Origin: Escherichia phage vB_EcoS-26175I
Sequence record: NC_133255.1
Strand: one strand, 5' to 3'
DNA length: 64,000 nt
Within the stretch, counting starts at the first letter, position 1, and every line of letters starts with the position of its first letter. Positions 7,379 to 38,819 of this stretch are shown here, in pieces. Position numbers and translations under genes: made by a program. The notes beneath the pieces are model-generated. The model saw only the letters and a list, made by a program, of their open reading frames with translations. It was not told the origin of the DNA and did not search any database.

Positions 7379-10228
7379 TTAAATAGATGCCCAATCCACA
7401 GATTGCTCGCCATTATCACCTTCTGCTCGTATACGGAAGCGTAACTTCCTATTAATACCTAGAGCATCCTCGTTATGAAGAGCATAGTCTGCCTTATTGT
7501 ATATCAGTAGATAATCGTAGACATACTGATCTTCAATTCGTACACTTCTTAATAAACGATCTAGGTTATCGTAGATTTCGAGAGTGTAGAAGATTCCATC
7601 AATGATATCTTCTTCTGGAATTCTATCCCAGGCCAACTTAACGTCTGGTCCTACAAACTCCGATGCATCTCCTGAAGCTGTATTAGTAACTCTGAAGTTA
7701 CTAACGACGCTTAAGTTTTTAGCAGAGTTAAGTTCTACTGATAGTGTTACTGGAGAACTTCGTCTACCATTAATATCTACAGCTCTAATCTCAAATACTG
7801 CTAAACCAGCAGGTTCTCCAATAATTTCTTGGATCATTCGTAGATTTGGATTAGTTTCTAGTTGCTGTATGATATAAGGATTAGCATGTCCAGAGTGAAC
7901 GATGGAGTAATAAACAACGTTATTAGTTAAGCTAGGAAGCCAAGATAACTCACCATTCTTACCAATAGATCCTACTTGTCCACCCGGTGTTGGTGTATAC
8001 ATAAAGTCTCTAGGAGGCAGTACATTATTACTAACATCAGGGATATCGTTACCACTATTATCAACCTGCTCGGAGTTAATGAATACATCCTCACCATACT
8101 CTTGCAGTGTAATATTAATCTTACCTTCTCTAGAGTTTTCAACTTCATCAACTAGGAAGTATTTCTTATCCCAACCATAACGACCATAAGTAAAAGCAAT
8201 GGGGTCATTAGGCTCAATGCCTATGAAGTGATATGGTAATGAGAATGTGAGAGTTCGTGAGTAACGAGACTTTTTCAGTTCTCTATCTGCAAAACTACGG
8301 GCAGTATAGTAGTTAGTGATATTTGCAAAAGAAAGTTGAAGTTTTTTATCTAACCCTTTATCCTGTTCCTTAAATATAGAGTTAAAGAATGTAATGGAGT
8401 TAGTCTTCCAGCTTAATGCGGGATCTAATATAGAGGCTTGTACTGAGTTAAACTTATTTCTACCAGTAGTATCTGATAGCTCCAAATCACCATAAGTATC
8501 TAAGAAGTCAATCTCCAGTGGGGTGTTGGAGAACTTCTCAACAGTTATTCTATATTGCCCAGATAAGTTATTAATAGCACCACCATAAGACTCTATCAAT
8601 CCCTGCACATTTTTAAATACTGACTCAGAGGTATCAAGAATAGTGTTCATTTGAACTATTTGTCTATTCTCTCCTACAGCATCAGTCCACCCAACATATC
8701 TCCAATAGGGTTGCCAAGAAACCTGATAGGATTCATCAATTATATCCAGAATAGCTGCTTCTTGAATAAGTTGCTGGAGGGGGAACTGATCAATAGTGAT
8801 ATTAGCACCGTAGCGATCAGAGGTTAGGTAGTCCAGAGTTTGCCAGATACCGTTTAAGCTAGTCTTATCAGCAGTTACTCTACCATCTGAATGGTAGATT
8901 TTAGTCTTCTTACCTTGAACTTCAGCACTAACTTCTGGAATTTCTGTTCTGTTTTCGTTAATAGTAAAGCGAACAATAGCATAAGCAGTATCTAACAGTT
9001 TATAACGAGAGTCCCAGTATTCCGGTCCATTCTCATTCATGTTCTGTAGATAGAAACCTTTCTCTTTTGCAATGTTAACTAGAACATCCGCAGCAGATTG
9101 GTCTGCTCTACCATGGTAAGTCCAGATACGGATATCGCCATTACCATCATTATACCTATATTCCTGTCCATGAACAGAAGGTTCAGAGCTTGATTGACCA
9201 GAAGCAATACGTTGCATGGTATCTCCAGCTACTTTCTTAGTACCAAAGCAAGTACGAGACTTACTATCATTAGGATCAATACAGATCATTGGTACATCAC
9301 CAAAGTAGAAATCTAGAAATCCATCAATCTCACCCTCACAGAATGCATACACTATATATACAATATTAGGGTTATGCAGCTCAGTATCTGCGAATACGGG
9401 GATTCCAGGAATTTTCTGAGTTCCATACACTACCGGGAGGAACTTAGCTGCTAAGTTAAAATCGATATCAACTTCCTTAGTCACAGTCTCATAGTATTTC
9501 TTCATGCTATAGCTTCTAGAAAGACCAAATAACTTTTTCTTAGACTGTAACTTGTAGCGTTCTTCCTGAACCTGATACTTAGCAAGAATAGAGATACTCT
9601 TATTAGCGTGGAAGAATCCATAGTCCTCTTGATATTCAGGTCGCTTAGCACCGTTAGATGGAACTAATTGGCCAGCAACAATCTCAAGTCCCCTATGGGC
9701 AGCATCATCTGTGAAACGTCCGTTTACTCTATCAAAGTCATAGAATTGATTTGAACAGTTCCATGTGATAGTAGATGTGCTAATTCCAGAAGTACCAATG
9801 TTATCCTTAATACCTCCACCAGTAATTTTACCACGAAAGTAAAGTAAAGGACCATTAGTGTCTGAATCTACAGGAAGAATATTGCCTTCTTCATCAATAA
9901 CCGCTTGATGGATTGAGATAGACCTATCTAGGAAGGATACACCATTTTGGACTAGTTTTAATACTTCATCCTCCGCAGTACCTGTGATAGTAAAAGAAAG
10001 ACTACCAATGGAAAGATCTCTATTTTGTTTATGTGTTGTTATAGACTTAACCTTACCGGAGGTATAAAGAATACCATTATATCTTACATCTCTAAAATAA
10101 TCTGTAAGATATATGTATGCAGAACTTGATCCAGTAGAACCAGGCAATTCAAGAGTAATAAGACATGCAGTTTTTATTTTATTATGAGTTCTTAAATACT
10201 CTCTTGCACTGTCAAGAATTTTCTTCAT
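7379..10228 (-). CDS. baseplate hub protein (T5 pb3-like)
   Basis: 949-aa ORF, same length as T5 pb3; follows distal tail protein. Confidence 0.7.
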   Translation of the reverse strand: MKKILDSAREYLRTHNKIKTACLITLELPGSTGSSSAYIYLTDYFRDVRYNGILYTSGKVKSITTHKQNRDLSIGSLSFTITGTAEDEVLKLVQNGVSFLDRSISIHQAVIDEEGNILPVDSDTNGPLLYFRGKITGGGIKDNIGTSGISTSTITWNCSNQFYDFDRVNGRFTDDAAHRGLEIVAGQLVPSNGAKRPEYQEDYGFFHANKSISILAKYQVQEERYKLQSKKKLFGLSRSYSMKKYYETVTKEVDIDFNLAAKFLPVVYGTQKIPGIPVFADTELHNPNIVYIVYAFCEGEIDGFLDFYFGDVPMICIDPNDSKSRTCFGTKKVAGDTMQRIASGQSSSEPSVHGQEYRYNDGNGDIRIWTYHGRADQSAADVLVNIAKEKGFYLQNMNENGPEYWDSRYKLLDTAYAIVRFTINENRTEIPEVSAEVQGKKTKIYHSDGRVTADKTSLNGIWQTLDYLTSDRYGANITIDQFPLQQLIQEAAILDIIDESYQVSWQPYWRYVGWTDAVGENRQIVQMNTILDTSESVFKNVQGLIESYGGAINNLSGQYRITVEKFSNTPLEIDFLDTYGDLELSDTTGRNKFNSVQASILDPALSWKTNSITFFNSIFKEQDKGLDKKLQLSFANITNYYTARSFADRELKKSRYSRTLTFSLPYHFIGIEPNDPIAFTYGRYGWDKKYFLVDEVENSREGKINITLQEYGEDVFINSEQVDNSGNDIPDVSNNVLPPRDFMYTPTPGGQVGSIGKNGELSWLPSLTNNVVYYSIVHSGHANPYIIQQLETNPNLRMIQEIIGEPAGLAVFEIRAVDINGRRSSPVTLSVELNSAKNLSVVSNFRVTNTASGDASEFVGPDVKLAWDRIPEEDIIDGIFYTLEIYDNLDRLLRSVRIEDQYVYDYLLIYNKADYALHNEDALGINRKLRFRIRAEGDNGEQSVDWASI

Positions 10229-33706: not shown

Positions 33707-33870
33707 TTTTAATACTCCGGTTTATTGGGGATTATTCCACAATAGCGCCTCGATACTTTGAAACGCTATTAGATTATAATCCGCTAGGAGTTAGCCTAAA
33801 CATTACCGTTATCCAAATTGTTAAAGAGCAGTTACTACGGGGAACATCTTAAAACCTATCGGCTAGCGTG

Positions 33871-34089
33871 TCAAGCGTTTTTTAAACTTTTTTCGATTTG
33901 ATGGGAGTTATATAAATCAATCATTATATTACGCCACACCATTTCCAGACCTTGCTGCTTGCCTTTCTTGTATTGCTTGAATCGGTATTTTACCGATCGT
34001 TGCGCTACTGTCAACAAATTTTTTGTTCTGCTATCTAATGCACTAGCAGGTTTCGCACTAATCACTAAAGCGTTTTTTGATTTGATCAT
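33871..34089 (-). CDS. hypothetical basic protein
   Basis: 72-aa ORF, Lys/Arg-rich; first minus-strand gene next to the divergent control region. Confidence 0.4.
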   Translation of the reverse strand: MIKSKNALVISAKPASALDSRTKNLLTVAQRSVKYRFKQYKKGKQQGLEMVWRNIMIDLYNSHQIEKSLKNA

Positions 34090-34465
34090 TATCGTCGATT
34101 CCTTATATTATATAAGTTTACCGCCGATAGGCTTTAAGATGTTCCCTAGTTTTTAAAGAGCGCGGCGGTAAACTTTCCCGCCGTGTAGTTCGTCATTGCC
34201 GCCCTACGTGATAAATAATAGGAGAATACCGAGAAGGGCGCAACCTTATTTTTGTAAAGAAACGTAAAGACAAACGCCACTGCACCACGTCCAGCGGCGC
34301 ACTAAATTTAATGAAACGGGCGCGCGAATAACACCAAAACAACCATTTTAGCAAGTAATTTTCTCATTTATATTTGCTTTGCCCTACTTGACAAAATCTA
34401 AAATCCTCGTGGTGAGGTTTTCTCGGTGTACCCCTTATGATTGCCTATCTTTTCCTTTGAGGCGC

Positions 34466-34492
34466 TTAGAATGCGTTACAGAGCGTTTTAGA
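34466..34492 (+). repeat. 27-bp direct repeat TTAGAATGCGTTACAGAGCGTTTTAGA (left copy)
   Basis: Identical 27-mer at 37806-37832; partial inverted copy near 34962 and partial direct copy near 38912. Confidence 0.9.
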
Positions 34493-34537
34493 CCCTGTTA
34501 ATAACTTATACAAAAAGCAAAAATGAAATTTAATGAG

Positions 34538-34546
34538 TTATCCACT
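34538..34546 (+). promoter_or_regulatory. DnaA-box-like 9-mer TTATCCACT (8/9)
   Basis: One mismatch to TTATCCACA. Confidence 0.4.
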
Positions 34547-34821
34547 TGATTTTTCAAAAAAGTATTTTCTGCTATTATTTTTCATTGACAAATAAGTTTA
34601 GACGTGCATTGATTGGTTAGCAGACTAACAATCGCTAGGATGATAATCACGCTGGTGGATTGTAACAGCTGAAACAGTTAGCAGACTATTAATACTCTAG
34701 AAACCTGTTAGCCAACTAACTATTTCATATTATATAATATACATATAAATTAATAAGAAATAATAACTATAAGAAACTATCAGCTAAGTGAGAACCACTA
34801 TCATTTAGGTTATTCACAAAG

Positions 34822-34830
34822 TTATCCACA
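34822..34830 (+). promoter_or_regulatory. DnaA box TTATCCACA
   Basis: Perfect match to the E. coli DnaA box consensus. Confidence 0.6.
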
Positions 34831-34870
34831 GCACAAAATAACTTGACGCAATAGGCGACGTTTTGGCGAC

Positions 34871-34879
34871 TTATCCACA
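34871..34879 (+). promoter_or_regulatory. DnaA box TTATCCACA
   Basis: Perfect consensus match, 40 bp from the previous box. Confidence 0.6.
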
Positions 34880-34899
34880 GACTTATATACAGGTTATCC

Positions 34900-34919
34900 T
34901 ACTGTATAAATATACAGGG
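34900..34919. promoter_or_regulatory. LexA (SOS) box-like palindrome TACTGTATAAATATACAGGG
   Basis: CTGT-N8-ACAG palindrome, core CTGTATAAATATACAG identical to right-hand copy at 37865-37880. Confidence 0.5.
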
Positions 34920-35166
34920 TAAATAGGTAGCAGTAACAACCGCAATCAAATTTAAGCGGCCTAGAACGCATTCTAAGCGATTTTCTCACTGCTACCCTTA
35001 TTATAATAAAGCCTTGTGTACGCTTACAGAGAGCTAGAAATAGAAAACGCGCGGTTATCATAAAAACAGGCAGTAGGCAAGGAATAAAAAACCTTTTCTT
35101 TTTTCTTGCCCCTAGCGAACAATTATCTATATCATTCACTCACCGATTAACGAGGGAGACAAAGAA

Positions 35167-36168
35167 ATGTCTACTGTAAGAATTGCAGTACCAGCAAACG
35201 CCACTATTATTAAGGGTAGTTTGCGCAACCTGCTAGACGGATCAAGTCCAGCAAGCCTACAACATACGGCGGCAATGGTTGAAAAGATTCACGATGATAT
35301 TTTAGATAATAATGATACTCATTATTGTTTAAGTGATTTCACACAACTACTAGACCCTACCCGCGTTCTAGTGCTTTACAACCGTGACTATCACATCATG
35401 CGAAATCAGCGGGGAAGCGATATTGATTTTATCATTGTAGGTCACGACGAAAAAAGCTATATTGCCCGTGGTTACAATGTACAAGAAAAGGAAATGGTTT
35501 TCGCTACTCGCGTAAATGGTATTAATTCCAGCGATGTAGAAGATTTACTATCTAGTATTTGGGGCGAATTGACAAGCGCCATTAAACGTGCTGATAGTGA
35601 CGCAATCGAAACAACTGGCGTATTGTGTTTTGAACGCGCTAGCGGTAACATGTTGATCCCTAACGATTATTTAGAGTATGGGAATGAATCAAACGTTGCA
35701 AACGCTGGATTTACACTTTTACCGCTTGACAATGTAACAAAACAGGCTGTAAGATCTAACACTCAAACTTCAAGCGCAAATGCGCAAACTACTGAAAATA
35801 AAGGAAATATTATGTCTAAAGTATCTTCTATCGTTGCTGCTAACAAATCTGCTGTTGTAAACGCTGCTAAACTGGAAGCGGGTAAAATTGCACTGACTCA
35901 AATCACAAAAGTAGCGGCGAAAAAAGCACCGTTTATGATTAAAGGGTATATTGATACGCCGATTGGTCGTGTAGTGATCGCTAACCTGCTGAGTGTAGCG
36001 GTTGACCAGTACGCCCCGACTAATGCGAAAGCGAAAGCGGTAGCAGGCGCGGCAATGGAAGCAGCAATGCTGGAAATGGTGCAGAGTTTCAATATTGCTG
36101 AAATGATCGATGAAATGGTAAAAGGCATTGACATTTCTACTTTTACCACTAACACCGAAAGCGAGTAA
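35167..36168 (+). CDS. hypothetical two-domain protein (first gene of plus-strand operon)
   Basis: 333-aa ORF, GGGAG RBS; N-terminal ~200 aa domain, Thr/Ser/Gln linker, Ala/Lys-rich C-terminal domain; no motif I recognise. Confidence 0.6.
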   Translation: MSTVRIAVPANATIIKGSLRNLLDGSSPASLQHTAAMVEKIHDDILDNNDTHYCLSDFTQLLDPTRVLVLYNRDYHIMRNQRGSDIDFIIVGHDEKSYIARGYNVQEKEMVFATRVNGINSSDVEDLLSSIWGELTSAIKRADSDAIETTGVLCFERASGNMLIPNDYLEYGNESNVANAGFTLLPLDNVTKQAVRSNTQTSSANAQTTENKGNIMSKVSSIVAANKSAVVNAAKLEAGKIALTQITKVAAKKAPFMIKGYIDTPIGRVVIANLLSVAVDQYAPTNAKAKAVAGAAMEAAMLEMVQSFNIAEMIDEMVKGIDISTFTTNTESE

Positions 36169-36194
36169 TAAATAGTCTAATGTAAAGTTTTGTA

Positions 36195-36223
36195 AAGGTC
36201 GCCCTAATCGGCGGCCTTTTTTG
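36195..36223 (+). terminator. putative rho-independent terminator/attenuator after first operon gene
   Basis: GC-rich hairpin followed by TTTTTT, then a TATAAT hexamer. Confidence 0.4.
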
Positions 36224-36287
36224 TTATAATGCCTTTACACCGAAACGGTGGACTGAAAATTTTCCCTAATTTCTAGGAGGCGTTAAA

Positions 36288-36437
36288 ATGGTTATTTTTC
36301 GATCTATTCTGGCTAGTATCTTGGGCGCTATTTTATCCTTGTTTGTAATAGCTTTCGGCGTTCACGTGGTTATTATTGGAGCAGGTATCGCGGGGTTTTC
36401 TTACTTGTTAGGCTGTATGACTGGTAAAGGGGAATAA
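36288..36437 (+). CDS. small membrane protein (49 aa)
   Basis: ATG with AGGAGG RBS; hydrophobic throughout (ILASILGAILSLFVIAFGVHVVIIGAGIAGF); below ORF-track size cutoff. Confidence 0.5.
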   Translation: MVIFRSILASILGAILSLFVIAFGVHVVIIGAGIAGFSYLLGCMTGKGE

Positions 36438-36439
36438 AA

Positions 36440-36652
36440 ATGTTAAAGAATGTTTCCCTTGCCCGTTCCAAAGGTTTTAAGCTGGTGGATGTTAACACGT
36501 TCGAGCGTCCAGATTGTAAAATCGAATATGTAGCACGCAACAAAAACGCTTTCCGTGTTACAGAAAAGAAATTTGACAAGCGCGGCAATTTGGTAGCCGA
36601 AACGGTCAAACACTTTGCCACCTTTTACGCTGCATTTCGTGGGGTATTATAA
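36440..36652 (+). CDS. hypothetical protein
   Basis: 70-aa ORF, basic. Confidence 0.45.
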   Translation: MLKNVSLARSKGFKLVDVNTFERPDCKIEYVARNKNAFRVTEKKFDKRGNLVAETVKHFATFYAAFRGVL

Positions 36653-36759
36653 TGGAAAGGGCAATTGTTAAAATGTTAACTTTTGTTTGTGGCGTGTCTA
36701 GTGCTACTCTGTTGATCACGCTAGTGATTATGATTATCCGTGACGCGAGGATCTTTTAA
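36652..36759 (+). CDS. small membrane protein (35 aa)
   Basis: Start overlaps upstream stop; single TM segment. Confidence 0.35.
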   Translation: MERAIVKMLTFVCGVSSATLLITLVIMIIRDARIF

Positions 36760-37103
36760 TGGTAATTTATGAGGGCAATCGTTTTGTTACTAATTGCCGT
36801 CCGGCATTATTAGCAAACTATTTAAATCAGCTTTCACCAGTTTATAAAGGCGTAGTTAATATCTATGAGGGCAAAGCACATTATAAGATTAATGCCATTG
36901 TTGCCCGTGAACTAGCGTTTCAATTTTTAACTTTCGGGTCTTGTGACGTTCAGGTTATGGGGGAAGCGTTAATAGCAGAAAATGAAAATGAATTTATCGA
37001 CATTTTCCGCAAAGTATATACAGAGCGCCTGATTATGAAAGGCGCGTATATTCAATCAACCGCTGAAAGTATCGAAACAGCGTTTCGAAAGGTGGCGCAA
37101 TGA
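36759..37103 (+). CDS. hypothetical protein
   Basis: 114-aa ORF; ATG overlaps previous stop. Confidence 0.5.
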   Translation: MVIYEGNRFVTNCRPALLANYLNQLSPVYKGVVNIYEGKAHYKINAIVARELAFQFLTFGSCDVQVMGEALIAENENEFIDIFRKVYTERLIMKGAYIQSTAESIETAFRKVAQ

Positions 37104-37285
37104 CTAGAAATGAAGCTGTTAAAGCTATGTTAGAAGGTAAAAAAGTAACTCATCGTTATTTTTCCATGCATGAATATTTATTCATGAAATATGAAGTGAT
37201 CACCACGGAGGATGGTTATAAATTTAATCATGAATTTTATAGCCGTGAAATGTTTAATGATGGCTGGCAGCTTTATTATGAATAG
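37100..37285 (+). CDS. hypothetical protein
   Basis: 61-aa ORF; ATGA overlap with upstream gene. Confidence 0.45.
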   Translation: MTRNEAVKAMLEGKKVTHRYFSMHEYLFMKYEVITTEDGYKFNHEFYSREMFNDGWQLYYE

Positions 37286-37415
37286 CTGGTGGCGTAAAAC
37301 GCAAAGTCACAAATCTAATAATACCGCTGGGAATGTTTCCCAGCGTTTACGATTTGGTAATGGCTTTACAATGATATTGATAATCATTCTCATTCTAGGA
37401 GCGATGGCGTTATGA
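37277..37415 (+). CDS. small membrane protein (46 aa)
   Basis: Internal start of ORF 37212..37415 overlapping upstream stop; C-terminal TM segment FTMILIIILILGAMAL. Confidence 0.35.
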
Positions 37416-37507
37416 GACTATATATTTTCGTGGGTAATATTAAGCCTGCTAATGATCCCAACGGTGGCGACAATATCCGCCGCTATTTTCAACAATACAT
37501 CTATTAA
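37412..37507 (+). CDS. small hypothetical protein (31 aa)
   Basis: ATGA start/stop overlap with upstream ORF; AGGAG 10 nt upstream. Confidence 0.3.
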   Translation: MRLYIFVGNIKPANDPNGGDNIRRYFQQYIY

Positions 37508-37522
37508 TAACGGGGCGTTACT

Positions 37523-37717
37523 ATGAGTGATAAAATTGTTATTCGTAAAACTAGTGTTACCGTGGATACATTCTATGTAGAAGATACAAAAGAAAACCGC
37601 GCAATTTGTGAGAATCAAGAGTATGACAAACTTATATATGATGAGTATGGTTACTACACTAATCTAGTAGATTCCTACGGTGAAAGCGTAGAGTTCTCCC
37701 ATCAAATACCGGACTAA
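37523..37717 (+). CDS. hypothetical acidic protein (last gene of plus-strand operon)
   Basis: 64-aa ORF followed by hairpin terminator. Confidence 0.45.
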   Translation: MSDKIVIRKTSVTVDTFYVEDTKENRAICENQEYDKLIYDEYGYYTNLVDSYGESVEFSHQIPD

Positions 37718-37723
37718 TAATAA

Positions 37724-37752
37724 CGGGGCGCAACTATCGGCCCCGCCTTTTC
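37724..37752 (+). terminator. rho-independent terminator ending plus-strand operon
   Basis: Hairpin CGGGGC-N10-GCCCCG followed by CCTTTTCT. Confidence 0.5.
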
Positions 37753-37805
37753 TGGCCTTCCTCAAATTTTCCCTTATTAAAATACCCCCTCCAAAAATAA
37801 ACGCG

Positions 37806-37832
37806 TTAGAATGCGTTACAGAGCGTTTTAGA
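37806..37832 (+). repeat. 27-bp direct repeat TTAGAATGCGTTACAGAGCGTTTTAGA (right copy)
   Basis: Identical to 34466-34492. Confidence 0.9.
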
Positions 37833-37862
37833 GCTATATTAGAGTTATTCACCACGCAGGAA

Positions 37863-37882
37863 TACTGTATAAATATACAGTA
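37863..37882. promoter_or_regulatory. LexA (SOS) box-like palindrome TACTGTATAAATATACAGTA
   Basis: 19/20 match to TACTGTATATATATACAGTA. Confidence 0.5.
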
Positions 37883-37890
37883 GAATAACC

Positions 37891-37911
37891 TGTTGATAAG
37901 TCTGTTGATAA
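37891..37911 (-). promoter_or_regulatory. two tandem DnaA-box-like 9-mers TGTTGATAA
   Basis: Each is one mismatch from TGTGGATAA (reverse complement of TTATCCACA); copies at 37891-37899 and 37903-37911. Confidence 0.4.
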
Positions 37912-37963
37912 CGCCTCAAAATCGCTAGGATTTTGTCAAGTCAAATCGTGCTGTTAATAAACC

Positions 37964-37972
37964 TGTGGATAA
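37964..37972 (-). promoter_or_regulatory. DnaA box (TGTGGATAA, reverse orientation)
   Basis: Perfect reverse-complement match to TTATCCACA. Confidence 0.6.
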
Positions 37973-38015
37973 CTTAAATAACAGTGTTTCTCACTTCCCT
38001 TTCTAAATGCAAATC

Positions 38016-38150
38016 ATTCTCATTATGCGACTCATTCGCATTCAACTCTGTAAATGATAACCATTCTCATTCCGCTTTCTAAACGCGAATCATTCTCATT
38101 CGCATTCAACTTCTCAAATGCGAATCAATCTCATTATCATTCGCATTTCG
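38016..38150. repeat. degenerate tandem repeats built from CATTCTCATT and CGCATTCAAC units
   Basis: At least five copies of (A)ATCATTCTCATT.CGC and three of TCGCATTCAAC(T)TCT within 135 bp. Confidence 0.7.
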
Positions 38151-38179
38151 GCAGGCAGGGCATTTTCATTTTTGCCCTG

Positions 38180-38790
38180 CGCTTTTGTGCAAATCCGACA
38201 TTTGCCCCCACGGATTACGTGCCAGCGTGCATGTGCGAATCCGACAATTTTTGGTAGTGTGCAAATCCGATGGGAAATATTTTTTATATGTGCGAATCCG
38301 ACAATGAATTTTCCTAAAAACTCCAGCAATCAACAACTGCGATGCAATCCAGCTGGATTTACTAGAATATGTGCAGATCCGACAAGTGTTAAGGTGTGCG
38401 AATCCGACAAGATTTTTGTGACTTCGATGAGAGGGTGTGTGATTGTGTGAGTTTGGGGAGAAGTGCGAATCCGATGAGATTTTGGGAGGAACTACGGAAG
38501 GAGCAGCGGTGTTGGTGCTTCAGCACCGGTTTGCTGCGTTTTTGGGGATAATGTGGGATGTTTTGGCTAGAATTGAGATTAGGGGAGATAAAGCGAAATT
38601 TTATTAGCAAAATGGGGCAGAATAGCTTGACAAGTGAAAATTCCTGTGGCTCTAAAAACTCAGGCAAATATGGGCCTTCGGCCCGAAATAATGCTGCTAT
38701 TTTCAGTGTTCCTAAAAACTTTGGAGACTCCTATCAATGTGCAAATCCGACCATAAATTTCTAGAAACATAATGTGCAAATCCGATAGCA
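38180..38790. repeat. iteron-like array: at least 9 copies of GTGCRAATCCGAYR with irregular spacing
   Basis: Copies near 38190, 38233, 38270, 38291, 38372, 38397, 38463, 38740, 38773, each followed by AT-rich tails. Confidence 0.8.
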
Positions 38791-38819
38791 ATTTCCAGAA
38801 ATGTGTTTTGGAAAAATGT

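What the first reader, a model, noticed from the sequence alone, without database searches (positions are those of the whole stretch)
34466..37972. Duplicated cis-element set (27-bp repeat, LexA-box-like palindrome, DnaA boxes) flanking the plus-strand operon
TTAGAATGCGTTACAGAGCGTTTTAGA occurs identically at 34466 and 37806. The palindrome CTGTATAAATATACAG (CTGT-N8-ACAG, near-consensus SOS box) occurs at 34902 and 37865. Perfect DnaA boxes sit at 34822, 34871 and (inverted) 37964, with near-boxes at 34538, 37891, 37903. The left set lies in the divergent promoter zone between the pre-early minus-strand genes and the plus operon; the right set lies in a convergent, promoter-free zone. Host LexA/DnaA binding at a phage first-step-transfer region would couple injection or pre-early expression to host physiology. 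T5 is reported to carry DnaA boxes and palindromes in its injection-stop region (from memory); the LexA-like palindromes and the bracketing arrangement are what stand out here.
Basis: seen in the sequence. Interest (0 to 1): 0.7.

Follow-up and report, generated by a model that had tools for sequence, protein, structure and literature searches.

The report
T5-type injection-stop inverted repeats, LexA box
The two motif sets are the arms of an inverted repeat already described in T5-like phages at the point where DNA injection pauses; its DnaA boxes are known, but its palindrome also matches a host SOS (LexA) operator almost perfectly and is conserved across the phage family, which I found nowhere in the literature I could search.

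Summary
All motifs sit at the stated coordinates and are far beyond chance. The window is Escherichia phage vB_EcoS-26175, an Epseptimavirus (T5-like).

The two sets are not a direct duplication. They are the arms of a ~200-bp inverted repeat (34786-34984 / 37794-37996) around the variable pre-early operon. This is the published T5 IRC-spacer-IRD / IRD'-spacer-IRC' pair, with eight DnaA boxes in four pairs. The DnaA boxes and the bracketing are therefore already known.

The LexA reading appears to be new.
- The right box, TACTGTATAAATATACAGTA, is one central base from the E. coli consensus and scores like umuDC.
- The same 20-mer sits 6-28 nt upstream of dinI, imuA-like and PA0069 genes in bacteria.
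- A LexA-type box next to DnaA boxes persists in Demerecviridae down to 32% A1 identity (Proteus and Vibrio phages).
- No paper I could search links T5 FST/iss DNA to LexA.

The 27-mer is also deeply conserved.

Neither box overlaps a validated promoter, so a classical operator role is unlikely. The best reading is a landing pad for host DnaA and LexA at the first-step/second-step transfer boundary. Binding and function are untested.

The parts
34786..34984 (.). Left arm of the ~200-bp inverted repeat, equivalent to T5 Repeat Region 2 (IRC-spacer-IRD plus IRB')
   Evidence: the repeat finder I1 reports a 132-nt core at 75% complementarity. A gapped local alignment of the reverse-complemented left arm against the right arm extends it to 34786-34984 / 37794-37996. 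The T5 equivalent is described in Davison 2020.
37794..37996 (.). Right arm of the inverted repeat, equivalent to the start of T5 Repeat Region 3 (IRD'-spacer-IRC'), inside the annotated T5 iss
   Evidence: It aligns collinearly with T5 from 9336 onward, spanning the 27-mer-like element (9352) and the palindrome (9411), and with 11 other phages. T5 annotates iss at 9140-10149.
37863..37882 (.). Right LexA-operator-like box TACTGTATAAATATACAGTA (16-mer core 37865-37880)
   Evidence: It differs from TACTG(TA)5CAGTA at one central base. Approximate HI is 0.89, equal to the strongest E. coli operators; the next best site in 64 kb scores 10.6, and the best of 20 shuffles 7.2. It is identical or near-identical in T5, EPS7, chee24, phiR201, Sepoy and Sugarlandvirus. 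LexA-type boxes hold the same place in Proteus and Vibrio phages. The exact 20-mer lies upstream of dinI, imuA-like and PA0069 genes in bacteria.
34900..34919 (.). Left LexA-operator-like box TACTGTATAAATATACAGGG (16-mer core 34902-34917)
   Evidence: Approximate HI is 3.67, better than recA or lexA in the same matrix. It is conserved in close and mid-distance relatives, but weaker or lost in several Vibrio phages.
34810..34830 (+). DnaA box pair TTATTCACA / TTATCCACA with a 3-bp gap
   Evidence: The pairing rule matches Davison 2020 section 3.3.3.
34871..34891 (+). DnaA box pair TTATCCACA / TTATATACA (second is a variant box) with a 3-bp gap
37891..37911 (-). DnaA variant box pair TTATCAACA / TTATCAACA with a 3-bp gap. 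The first box starts 8 bp after the LexA-like 20-mer.
   Evidence: This is part of the most conserved block of the 13-phage alignment. In relatives one or both boxes of this pair are perfect TTATCCACA.
37952..37972 (-). DnaA box pair TTATTAACA (variant) / TTATCCACA with a 3-bp gap
37806..37832 (+). 27-mer TTAGAATGCGTTACAGAGCGTTTTAGA, right copy; built from units phased at ~10 bp
   Evidence: The family consensus TTAGAATCGCTTACAGAGCGTTTTAGA recurs in EPS7, phiR201, Sepoy, Sugarlandvirus and even Vibrio phages whose A1 is 31-33% identical.
34466..34492 (+). 27-mer, direct full copy outside the left arm (T5 Repeat Region 1 zone)
   Evidence: In relatives this copy reads ...ATCGCTT... rather than ...ATGCGTT..., so the exact identity seen here looks like recent conversion.
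34954..34976 (-). Inverted half-copy of the 27-mer inside the left arm
   Evidence: the repeat finder I5 and I8; alignment.
35167..37717 (+). Variable pre-early operon enclosed by the arms (DUF7566 gene, T5.014-like gene, small ORFs)
   Evidence: ORFs and annotation; Pfam and PHROG hits. A promoter-like site at 35106-35135 corresponds to T5's validated P11.
37724..37752 (+). Terminator-like hairpin plus T-run after the last operon gene
   Evidence: RNA fold gives -15.2 kcal/mol, z = -2.15. T5 annotates a rho-independent terminator at the same relative place.
37975..38791 (.). Further iss-type repeat arrays (CATTCTCATT units; 7-10 copies of TGTGCGAATCCGACA), the DRE/DRD equivalents
   Evidence: the repeat finder D1-D4.

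Best explanation
**Identity (shown)**
- These are the two arms of the IRC-spacer-IRD / IRD'-spacer-IRC' inverted repeat of the T5 family.
- The repeat lies in the terminal repeat and brackets the variable pre-early operon.
- The right arm opens the non-coding injection-stop (iss) region.

**Composition (shown from sequence)**
- Each arm is a composite of three element types that persist across Demerecviridae even where their order is shuffled:
  1. four pairs of DnaA 9-mers, with starts 12 bp apart within a pair;
  2. near the inner end, a palindrome that is a high-affinity-type LexA operator;
  3. a 27-bp element built of units phased at ~10 bp.

**Mechanism (inferred)**
- The left end of the genome enters first. 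The right arm is therefore among the last DNA to reach the cytoplasm before transfer pauses.
- There a LexA dimer and an adjacent DnaA oligomer would load. Box spacing is 17 or 28-29 nt, about one helical turn apart.
- Together with a still unknown binder of the 27-mer, they would build a nucleoprotein complex at the first-step/second-step boundary.
- The weaker left arm would provide a second, mirror-image site.
- This complex would take part in holding or marking the DNA during the pause, and would shield the boundary from RNA polymerase arriving from the operon.
- It would not act as a classical promoter operator.

**How sure**
- Identity: about 0.97.
- The right box binds LexA in vitro: about 0.85.
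- LexA binding has been selected for: about 0.55.
- The role is in the injection pause or boundary: about 0.35-0.45.
For: **Identity**
- The region is 100% identical to MK907270 (Epseptimavirus), and dmp, A1 and A2 lie to the left.
- Inverted repeat.
- Eight boxes in four pairs match Davison's description.
- The right arm aligns collinearly with T5.

**LexA-type box**
- Approximate HI is 0.89 and 3.67. The window's next best site scores 10.6 and the best shuffle 7.2.
- Seven of the E. coli operators used to build the matrix were verified in MG1655.
- The exact 20-mer occurs in at least 120 bacterial genomes, essentially all Gamma- or Betaproteobacteria.
- In 6 of 12 sampled genomes it sits 6-28 nt upstream of dinI-family, imuA-like or PA0069-family genes.

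**Conservation**
- Exactly two boxes per repeat occur in T5, chee24, EPS7, Sepoy, KpGranit, Sugarland and Roth50; phiR201 has three because IRD' is duplicated.
- Boxes are also present in Proteus phage Stubb and in Vibrio phages with A1 at 32-44% identity, always beside TTATCCACA.
- The box plus the adjacent DnaA pair is the most conserved block in a 13-phage alignment.
- The phage half-site consensus TACTGTATAT equals the E. coli LexA half-site.
- Single substitutions in one half-site are never compensated in the other. That fits protein half-site reading, not a hairpin.

**Boundary role**
- The iss-proximal copy is the stronger and more widely kept one.
- It follows the operon terminator and lies inside T5's annotated iss.
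- Neither box overlaps the P11-type promoter.
- Recent papers state that iss function is experimentally unresolved.
Against: - No binding data exist for LexA or DnaA on this DNA.
- A cytoplasmic complex does not obviously stop DNA from continuing to enter. The physical logic of any 'anchor' model is weak.
- From my own knowledge, T5 plates on recA strains, so RecA-dependent LexA cleavage cannot be essential for infection.
- River4-type Vibrio phages keep the DnaA clusters but have only degenerate boxes, with HI 7.7 and 10.8. The LexA-type site is therefore dispensable in at least one lineage.
- All known hosts use the same CTGT-N8-ACAG LexA motif. Conservation therefore cannot separate a host LexA site from a site for a conserved phage protein.
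- The HI matrix was built from operators I recalled, only seven of them verified. The uvrA/ssb site was entered twice, and the identical umuDC/sbmC 20-mer was entered twice.
- The half-site profile comparison is partly circular, because the sites were picked with that matrix.
Confidence: 0.45

Rival explanations
1. Transcriptional control or insulation. The boxes would be operators of weak inward-facing promoters: a -10-like TATAAA/TATATT inside the palindrome and a -35-like TTATCA/TTATCC inside the neighbouring DnaA box. Alternatively, LexA and DnaA would act as roadblocks that stop RNA polymerase leaving or entering the pre-early operon. Pre-early expression would then depend on the host's SOS and DnaA state.
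For: - A promoter-like match on the minus strand, TTATCA-16-TATATT at 37899-37872, overlaps the right box. The inverted symmetry puts a similar arrangement facing inward on the left.
- In Vibrio phages River4 and L065 a 27-mer plus LexA-type box lies upstream of, and in the same sense as, A2/A1.
- The right box follows the operon terminator, as a backstop would.
- From my own knowledge, DnaA bound to a DnaA box can block transcribing RNA polymerase (Schaefer and Messer, asnC).
Against: - The promoter-like matches are weak (9 of 12), and such matches are common in this AT-rich region: 25 found against 15 expected.
- The validated T5 promoter P11 is about 190 bp downstream of the left box.
- The best-conserved, strongest box faces the 3' end of the operon, where an inward promoter would only make antisense RNA.
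- Every LexA consensus contains a TATA-like string, so -10 resemblance is automatic.
Confidence: 0.2
2. The palindrome is a target of a phage protein: A2, the A1-A2 complex, or another pre-early protein. One example is the cleavage or release site in Davison's 'A1 restriction enzyme' model, which lists PalD among its candidates. The match to the LexA operator would then be incidental or a mimic.
For: - A1 and A2 are present in every phage that carries the box.
- Davison proposes palindromes of this region as cleavage sites.
- Host range gives no power to separate the two readings.
Against: - All ten half-site positions equal the LexA consensus, and the exact 20-mer is an SOS-gene operator in bacteria. 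That is an unlikely coincidence.
- The site stays constant while A1 drops to about 32% identity.
- No LexA-like winged-helix domain, or any other known DNA-binding domain, was detected in the pre-early ORFs.
- The 27-mer is a better candidate for a phage-specific protein site.
Confidence: 0.2
3. The arms are mainly recombination anchors. Conserved inverted homology would let the variable operon be swapped between phages or inverted. The motifs inside would be inherited passengers with no host-protein function.
For: - The enclosed segment is inverted in Sugarlandvirus relative to T5 and EPS7.
- The asymmetric centre of the palindrome (AAA or TTT) is flipped independently at either copy among close relatives.
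- The window's two 27-mers are identical while relatives' copies differ. All three points suggest exchange between the arms.
- Operon content varies greatly (Davison).
Against: - Passive homology would not keep consensus LexA and DnaA motifs while the surrounding bases diverge.
- It would not keep the same three element types after rearrangement in Vibrio phages.
- It would not keep DnaA box pair spacing.
- No recombinase is encoded nearby.
Confidence: 0.1

Closest known systems
T5 Repeat Regions 2 and 3: IRC-spacer-IRD / IRD'-spacer-IRC' inverted repeats with eight DnaA boxes, part of the injection stop signal (Heusterspreute 1987; Wang 2005; Davison 2015; Davison 2020, bioRxiv 10.1101/866236)
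   Same: - Position in the terminal repeat around the variable pre-early operon.
- Inverted orientation.
- Four DnaA or variant pairs with 3-bp gaps.
- Collinear sequence alignment with T5.
- A palindrome at the start of IRD' (probably T5 palD).
- Downstream DRE/DRD-type repeat arrays.
   Different: - Nothing structural differs; this is another member.
- Two points are added here: the homology extends to about 200 bp and includes half of the 27-mer, and the palindrome is a near-consensus LexA operator.
- Davison 2020 contains no mention of LexA or SOS.
- I could not read the 1987, 2005 and 2015 papers.
Gammaproteobacterial SOS boxes (LexA operators of recA, umuDC, dinI, sulA and others)
   Same: - The 20-mer matches TACTG(TA)5CAGTA at 19 of 20 positions.
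- Its score is in the range of the strongest E. coli operators.
- The identical 20-mer lies upstream of dinI, imuA-like and PA0069 genes in bacteria.
   Different: - It does not overlap a validated promoter.
- It sits in non-coding DNA of an obligately lytic phage.
- It is always coupled to phased DnaA boxes.
- It is present as an inverted pair about 3 kb apart.
LexA-controlled switches of temperate phages and plasmids: CTXphi PrstA, coliphage 186 tum, N15 antC, Gifsy antirepressors, GIL01 gp7-LexA, colicin promoters (from my own knowledge)
   Same: A mobile element carries a host LexA operator and so reads the host SOS state.
   Different: - Those operators overlap promoters of lysis-lysogeny or toxin genes.
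- Here there is no lysogeny and no obviously regulated gene.
- The strongest copy sits at a DNA-entry boundary.
Chromosomal DnaA box clusters (oriC, datA, DARS)
   Same: Clustered, phased, mixed-affinity DnaA 9-mers.
   Different: - No DNA unwinding element was identified.
- T5 origins map mid-genome, and replication genes are not yet in the cell (Davison).
- The phasing is 12 bp within a pair.

Membership tests
T5-type IRC-spacer-IRD / IRD'-spacer-IRC' (iss-associated repeat regions) | Lies in the terminal-repeat / FST region downstream of dmp-A1-A2, bracketing the variable pre-early operon | tested here: met
   dmp, A1 and A2 are annotated just to the left; the operon 35167-37717 lies between the arms.
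T5-type IRC-spacer-IRD / IRD'-spacer-IRC' (iss-associated repeat regions) | Two copies of ~131 bp in inverted orientation | tested here: met
   132-nt core at 75% complementarity, extended to about 200 bp with gaps.
T5-type IRC-spacer-IRD / IRD'-spacer-IRC' (iss-associated repeat regions) | Eight DnaA or variant boxes in pairs separated by 3 bp, two pairs per arm | tested here: met
   Pairs at 34810/34822, 34871/34883, 37891/37903 and 37952/37964.
T5-type IRC-spacer-IRD / IRD'-spacer-IRC' (iss-associated repeat regions) | Sequence homology and constant internal spacing relative to T5 | tested here: met
   The 13-phage MAFFT alignment shows at most 1-2 nt of indels between the window and T5 across the arm. 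Of 533 phage records with a blastn hit, 458 cover at least 80% of the right set. I did not re-derive Davison's exact 52-bp spacer boundaries.
T5-type IRC-spacer-IRD / IRD'-spacer-IRC' (iss-associated repeat regions) | Functions as (part of) the injection stop signal | not testable with these tools
   This is a functional definition. The literature says it is experimentally unresolved even for T5.
LexA operator (SOS box) of Gamma-/Betaproteobacteria | CTGT-N8-ACAG palindrome close to TACTG(TA)5CAGTA | tested here: met
   Approximate HI is 0.89 and 3.67; shuffles reach 7.2 at best. The matrix was built from recalled operators, seven of them verified in MG1655.
LexA operator (SOS box) of Gamma-/Betaproteobacteria | The sequence is actually used upstream of SOS-regulon genes | tested here: met
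   The exact 20-mer lies 6-28 nt upstream of dinI-family (2), imuA-like (2) and PA0069-family (2) genes in a sample of 12 bacterial loci. The imuA-like hits are below the NCBIfam cut-off.
LexA operator (SOS box) of Gamma-/Betaproteobacteria | Overlaps or abuts a promoter so that LexA represses transcription | tested here: inconclusive
   Only weak promoter-like hexamers overlap the boxes. The validated P11 equivalent is about 190 bp away from the left box. The right box is in a zone without annotated promoters.
LexA operator (SOS box) of Gamma-/Betaproteobacteria | Bound by LexA; the target is derepressed on DNA damage | not testable with these tools
   Needs EMSA or footprinting, ChIP, and lexA(Def) or lexA(Ind-) hosts.
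DnaA box cluster | 9-mers matching TTWTNCACA, clustered beyond chance | tested here: met
   4 of 8 consensus boxes in the window lie in 402 bp (P about 1e-7). Distant relatives carry up to 14 perfect boxes in 3.3 kb (L059).
DnaA box cluster | Bound by DnaA | not testable with these tools
   No binding data. It is proposed only in Davison 2020.
Site-specific invertible segment (Hin/Gin-type) | Recombinase gene next to short inverted crossover sites | tested here: not met
   No recombinase domain was found in the flanking or enclosed ORFs. The inversion seen in Sugarlandvirus is an evolutionary difference between genera, not a demonstrated switch.

The most novel reading that the evidence does not exclude
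Host LexA, together with DnaA, is a co-opted structural or regulatory factor of two-step DNA delivery in an obligately lytic phage family. LexA would occupy a near-perfect operator at the first-step/second-step boundary and at its mirror copy. LexA occupancy, or its loss in SOS-induced cells or after A1-triggered host DNA breakdown, would then modulate the injection pause, the hand-over to second-step transfer, or the pre-early programme.
Probability: 0.3. Interest if true: 0.8.

Novelty: new member of a known kind. Interest (0 to 1): 0.55.

Why it matters
- How T5 stops injecting after about 8% of its genome, and restarts only once A1 and A2 are made, has been open for more than fifty years. 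Papers from 2023 and 2026 still call the iss mechanism unresolved.
- The only current molecular proposal involves DnaA boxes.
- The palindrome at the start of the iss repeat is a consensus-grade LexA operator, kept from E. coli phages to Vibrio phages. This adds a second, easily testable host factor.
- Purified LexA, lexA(Def) and lexA(Ind-) strains and simple box mutations are all standard tools.
- It would also be an unusual case of a strictly lytic phage carrying conserved SOS operators.
- If LexA does not bind, or binding has no effect, the element remains what the literature already describes, and the finding is ordinary.

Tried and rejected
1. **JSS1_004 lead.** A paper reports that this phage protein binds the recA and lexA promoters. 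The protein carries an N-terminal kinase domain and a C-terminal shutoff domain, an architecture I recognise from T7 gp0.7 and that matches no pre-early ORF of this window. I dropped it without confirming which phage family JSS1 belongs to.
2. **Hairpin or cruciform role for the palindrome.** Rejected, because single half-site substitutions in relatives are never compensated. Examples are CTGG, CTGTAC and ACACAG.
3. **Known RNA family.** Only two sub-threshold Rfam hits were found, both at the internal operon terminator.
4. **Site-specific invertase system.** No recombinase was found.
6. **Classical SOS control of the plus operon.** The box is about 190 bp upstream of the P11-type promoter.
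7. **Published heterology-index matrix or operator table.** I could not retrieve one, so I built a matrix from recalled operators and verified seven in MG1655.
8. **Davison 2015.** I could not retrieve it by DOI or by a PMC id recalled from memory. I did not try to retrieve Heusterspreute 1987 or Wang 2005, subscription-journal papers that none of my searches returned. 'Unreported' therefore rests on Davison 2020 and full-text searches only.
9. **Host-tracking test.** I looked for a different LexA motif in phages of non-gamma hosts. It was not possible: A1 homologues outside Demerecviridae lack the whole module (L061, L074-L076).

Full report
**1. What the window is**

Region 34200-38300 is 100% identical to Escherichia phage vB_EcoS-26175 (MK907270, Demerecviridae, Epseptimavirus). 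It is 90-95% identical to many Salmonella and Escherichia T5-like phages. The record annotates dmp, A1 and A2 on the minus strand just to the left, then a plus-strand block of small hypothetical genes. This is the pre-early (first-step-transfer, FST) part of a T5-type terminal repeat. The deposited assembly is permuted and the repeat is collapsed, so a virion would carry the whole set twice.

**2. The observation**

- The 27-mer is exact at 34466 and 37806. No other match with up to 3 mismatches exists, and 0 were expected.
- CTGTATAAATATACAG is exact at 34902 and 37865.
- Perfect TTATCCACA boxes lie at 34822, 34871 and (minus strand) 37964. One-mismatch boxes lie at 34538, 34810, 37891 and 37903.

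DnaA-type 9-mers are not enriched in the window as a whole (20 found, 19.9 expected). They are strongly clustered: four of the eight TTWTNCACA boxes in 64 kb lie in 402 bp (P about 1e-7).

**3. The geometry is an inverted repeat, not a duplication**

The repeat finder reports arms 34786-34917 and 37865-37996, 132 nt at 75% complementarity. A gapped alignment extends them to 34786-34984 and 37794-37996.

Reading the right arm from the operon outward, the order is:
- the first half of the 27-mer;
- about 30 less conserved bases;
- the palindrome;
- a pair of DnaA-variant boxes;
- a spacer;
- a second pair;
- a conserved tail.

The left arm is the mirror image. Its 27-mer partner is the inverted half-copy at 34954-34976. 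The full direct copy at 34466 lies outside the arm. The eight boxes form four pairs whose starts are 12 bp apart, which is a 3-bp gap.

**4. This structure is published**

Davison's preprint 'Phage T5 two-step injection' (10.1101/866236) describes three untranslated repeat regions in the T5 terminal repeat.
- Repeat Region 2 holds IRC-spacer-IRD.
- Repeat Region 3, the probable injection stop signal, starts with palC, palD and IRD'-spacer-IRC'.
- The two are 131-bp inverted copies of each other.
- The author proposes that membrane-bound DnaA holds the DNA.

T5's RefSeq record annotates iss at 9140-10149. The palindrome lies at 9411, preceded by a terminator at 9275-9296 and a 27-mer-like sequence at 9352. 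The DnaA boxes, the palindromes and the bracketing arrangement are therefore already known. This phage is another member.

**5. The palindrome as a LexA operator**

The right 20-mer, TACTGTATAAATATACAGTA, differs from the textbook consensus TACTG(TA)5CAGTA at one central base.

Scoring:
- I built a heterology-index matrix from about 25 E. coli operators recalled from the literature.
- The seven I checked (recA, lexA x2, uvrA/ssb, sulA, umuDC) are present upstream of those genes in MG1655.
- The right box scores 0.89, level with the strongest operators. The left box scores 3.67, better than recA or lexA.
- The next best site in the 64-kb window scores 10.6.
- The best site in 20 shuffles scores 7.2.
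- The absolute values are approximate, because the matrix is not the published one.

Independent check:
- Roughly one occurrence would be expected by chance at uniform base composition (my estimate).
- Essentially all are Gamma- or Betaproteobacteria, the groups that use this LexA motif.
- In a sample of twelve, it lies 6-28 nt upstream of two dinI-family genes, two imuA-like genes and two PA0069-family radical-SAM genes.
- These are classic SOS-regulon members (established knowledge).
- The imuA-like hits are below the NCBIfam cut-off.

**6. Conservation of the box**

- T5, chee24, EPS7, Sepoy, KpGranit, Sugarland and Roth50 each have exactly two such boxes at the homologous places. phiR201, whose IRD' is duplicated, has three.
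- Using an A1 alignment I fetched 64 loci from IMG/VR.
- In almost every Demerecviridae locus with enough upstream DNA, from 97% down to 32% A1 identity, a box with HI of 4.25 or less (3.5 or less in all but the Novosibvirus pair) lies at the iss-proximal set.
- It sits 17 or 28-29 nt, start to start, from a perfect TTATCCACA. The two spacings differ by about one helical turn.
- Proteus phage Stubb and Vibrio phage D239 show the same pattern with different central bases, for example CTGTATATCCATACAG.
- In a 13-phage alignment the box plus the adjacent DnaA pair is the most conserved contiguous block.
- The phage half-site consensus is TACTGTATAT, identical to the E. coli LexA half-site. The per-position information profiles correlate (rho 0.84). 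This is partly circular, because the sites were picked with the matrix.
- Single substitutions in one half-site are never mirrored in the other. That argues for protein half-site reading rather than a hairpin.
- The asymmetric centre (AAA or TTT) flips freely between close relatives, as expected if the centre is not read.

Exceptions and limits:
- River4-type Vibrio phages keep the DnaA clusters but have only degenerate boxes.
- The A2-proximal box is weaker and often lost in Vibrio phages.

**7. The 27-mer**

- Its family consensus, TTAGAATCGCTTACAGAGCGTTTTAGA, recurs in EPS7, phiR201, Sepoy and Sugarlandvirus.
- It recurs almost unchanged in Vibrio phages whose A1 is only 31-33% identical.
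- It reads as units phased at about 10 bp: TTAGAAnCGC, TTACAGAGCG, TTTTAGA.
- In River4 and L065 it directly abuts a LexA-type box.
- In relatives the copy left of the arm reads ATCGCTT where the window has ATGCGTT.
- Its binder is unknown. A phage protein such as A2 is a reasonable guess.

**8. Is the LexA reading new?**

- Davison 2020 contains no occurrence of 'LexA' or 'SOS'.
- Full-text searches combining T5 terms with LexA returned nothing relevant.
- A 2023 BF23 paper and a 2026 PNAS paper describe iss as repeats, palindromes and DnaA boxes of untested function.
- I could not read Heusterspreute 1987, Wang 2005 or Davison 2015. 'Unreported' is therefore provisional.

**9. How it might work**

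Points against a classical operator:
- The promoter validated in T5 for the enclosed operon, P11, sits just upstream of T5.011.
- Its equivalent here is 35106-35135, about 190 bp downstream of the left box.
- The right box lies after the last gene and a terminator-like hairpin.
- Weak promoter-like hexamers do overlap the boxes. Any LexA consensus looks like a -10 element, however, and such matches are common in this AT-rich region.

Points for a boundary role:
- The stronger and more widely conserved copy is the one at the FST boundary.
- Because the left end enters first, this arm is among the last DNA to reach the cytoplasm before transfer pauses.

My best reading is a host-factor landing pad. 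A LexA dimer and a phased DnaA oligomer, plus the binder of the 27-mer, would form a complex at the boundary, with a weaker mirror site at the other end of the operon. The complex would take part in the pause and/or shield the boundary from transcription. This extends Davison's DnaA model and inherits its weakness: a cytoplasmic complex does not obviously stop further entry. From my own knowledge, T5 plates on recA strains, so LexA cleavage cannot be essential.

**10. Rivals**

- *Transcriptional control or insulation* (0.2). Some support comes from Vibrio phages, where a 27-mer plus box lies upstream of A2/A1.
- *A phage protein binds the palindrome* (0.2).
  - No known DNA-binding domain was found in the other pre-early ORFs.
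  - All hosts share one LexA motif, so conservation cannot separate this rival from the main reading.
- *Recombination anchors only* (0.1).
  - The enclosed segment is inverted in Sugarlandvirus, and there are signs of conversion between the arms.
  - This does not explain why consensus motifs persist while flanking bases diverge, or why they survive rearrangement.

**11. Verdict**

- The element is the known T5 iss-associated inverted repeat.
- The DnaA boxes and the bracketing are not new.
- The LexA-operator identity of the palindrome is strongly supported by sequence and comparison and appears unreported. Binding and function are untested.
- Interest is moderate. It rests on giving an old open question a cheap, concrete test.

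Noticed in passing
L004 1909-5651, L006 1536-5556, L007 (Sugarlandvirus) compared with window 34786-37996: In Klebsiella phages KpGranit, Sugarland and Roth50 the operon between the two arms is on the opposite strand, while the A2 side and the early-gene side keep their orientation. The operon is the DUF7566 gene followed by its neighbours. The whole segment between the inverted repeats has therefore been inverted in that genus, presumably by recombination between the arms.
   Followed up: partly
L011 562, 3956, 4281; L012 5094, 5111, 8966; L065 5626, 5873, 8356; also L059, L062, L067-L069: Vibrio T5-like phages carry repeated sigma-54-type promoter consensus sequences (TGGCAYG-N4-TTGCW) in the non-coding FST zones, next to the DnaA and LexA-type boxes. 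None is present in the window, T5, KpGranit or Stubb.
   Followed up: no
window 37879-37911 and homologous columns of the alignment: A third DnaA-like unit (AGTAGAATAA / AGTAGGATAA) overlaps the outer flank of the LexA-type box. This gives three 'GATAA' units at 12-bp spacing, so LexA and DnaA binding could compete or cooperate.
   Followed up: no
window 34466-34492 vs 37806-37832; L003 1009 and 5527: The two 27-mers are identical in this phage. In EPS7, phiR201 and Sepoy the left copy reads ...AATCGCTT... and the right copy ...ATGCGTT.... The left copy here seems to have been converted recently to the right-copy sequence.
   Followed up: partly
window 37975-38135 and 38186-38791: Downstream of the right arm lie arrays of CATTCTCATT-containing units (four ~50-nt copies) and 7-10 copies of TGTGCGAATCCGACA. 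These are the equivalents of T5's DRE and DRD repeats in the iss region.
   Followed up: no
window 34616-34723: Three copies of GTTAGCAGACTAACAAT (each internally palindromic, GTTAG...CTAAC) lie 61 and 30 nt apart in the zone left of the left arm.
   Followed up: no
window 33840-33863 / 34123-34146: A 24-nt inverted repeat, 96% complementary, flanks the small minus-strand gene 33871-34089 (DUF7416). It may be the equivalent of T5's IRA/IRA'.
   Followed up: no
window 36440-36652 (+): The 70-aa ORF belongs to PHROG 4227, which is annotated as 'endonuclease nicking abasic sites generated by host uracil glycosylase Ung' (T5.014 family). It is a DNA-damaging host-takeover function inside the operon bracketed by LexA-type boxes.
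   Followed up: no
[not shown]
   Followed up: partly
L059/L060, about 3.3 kb upstream of A1: An uncultured relative (A1 34% identical) carries 14 perfect TTATCCACA boxes within about 3.3 kb of its FST region. This density is far higher than in the enterobacterial phages.
   Followed up: no
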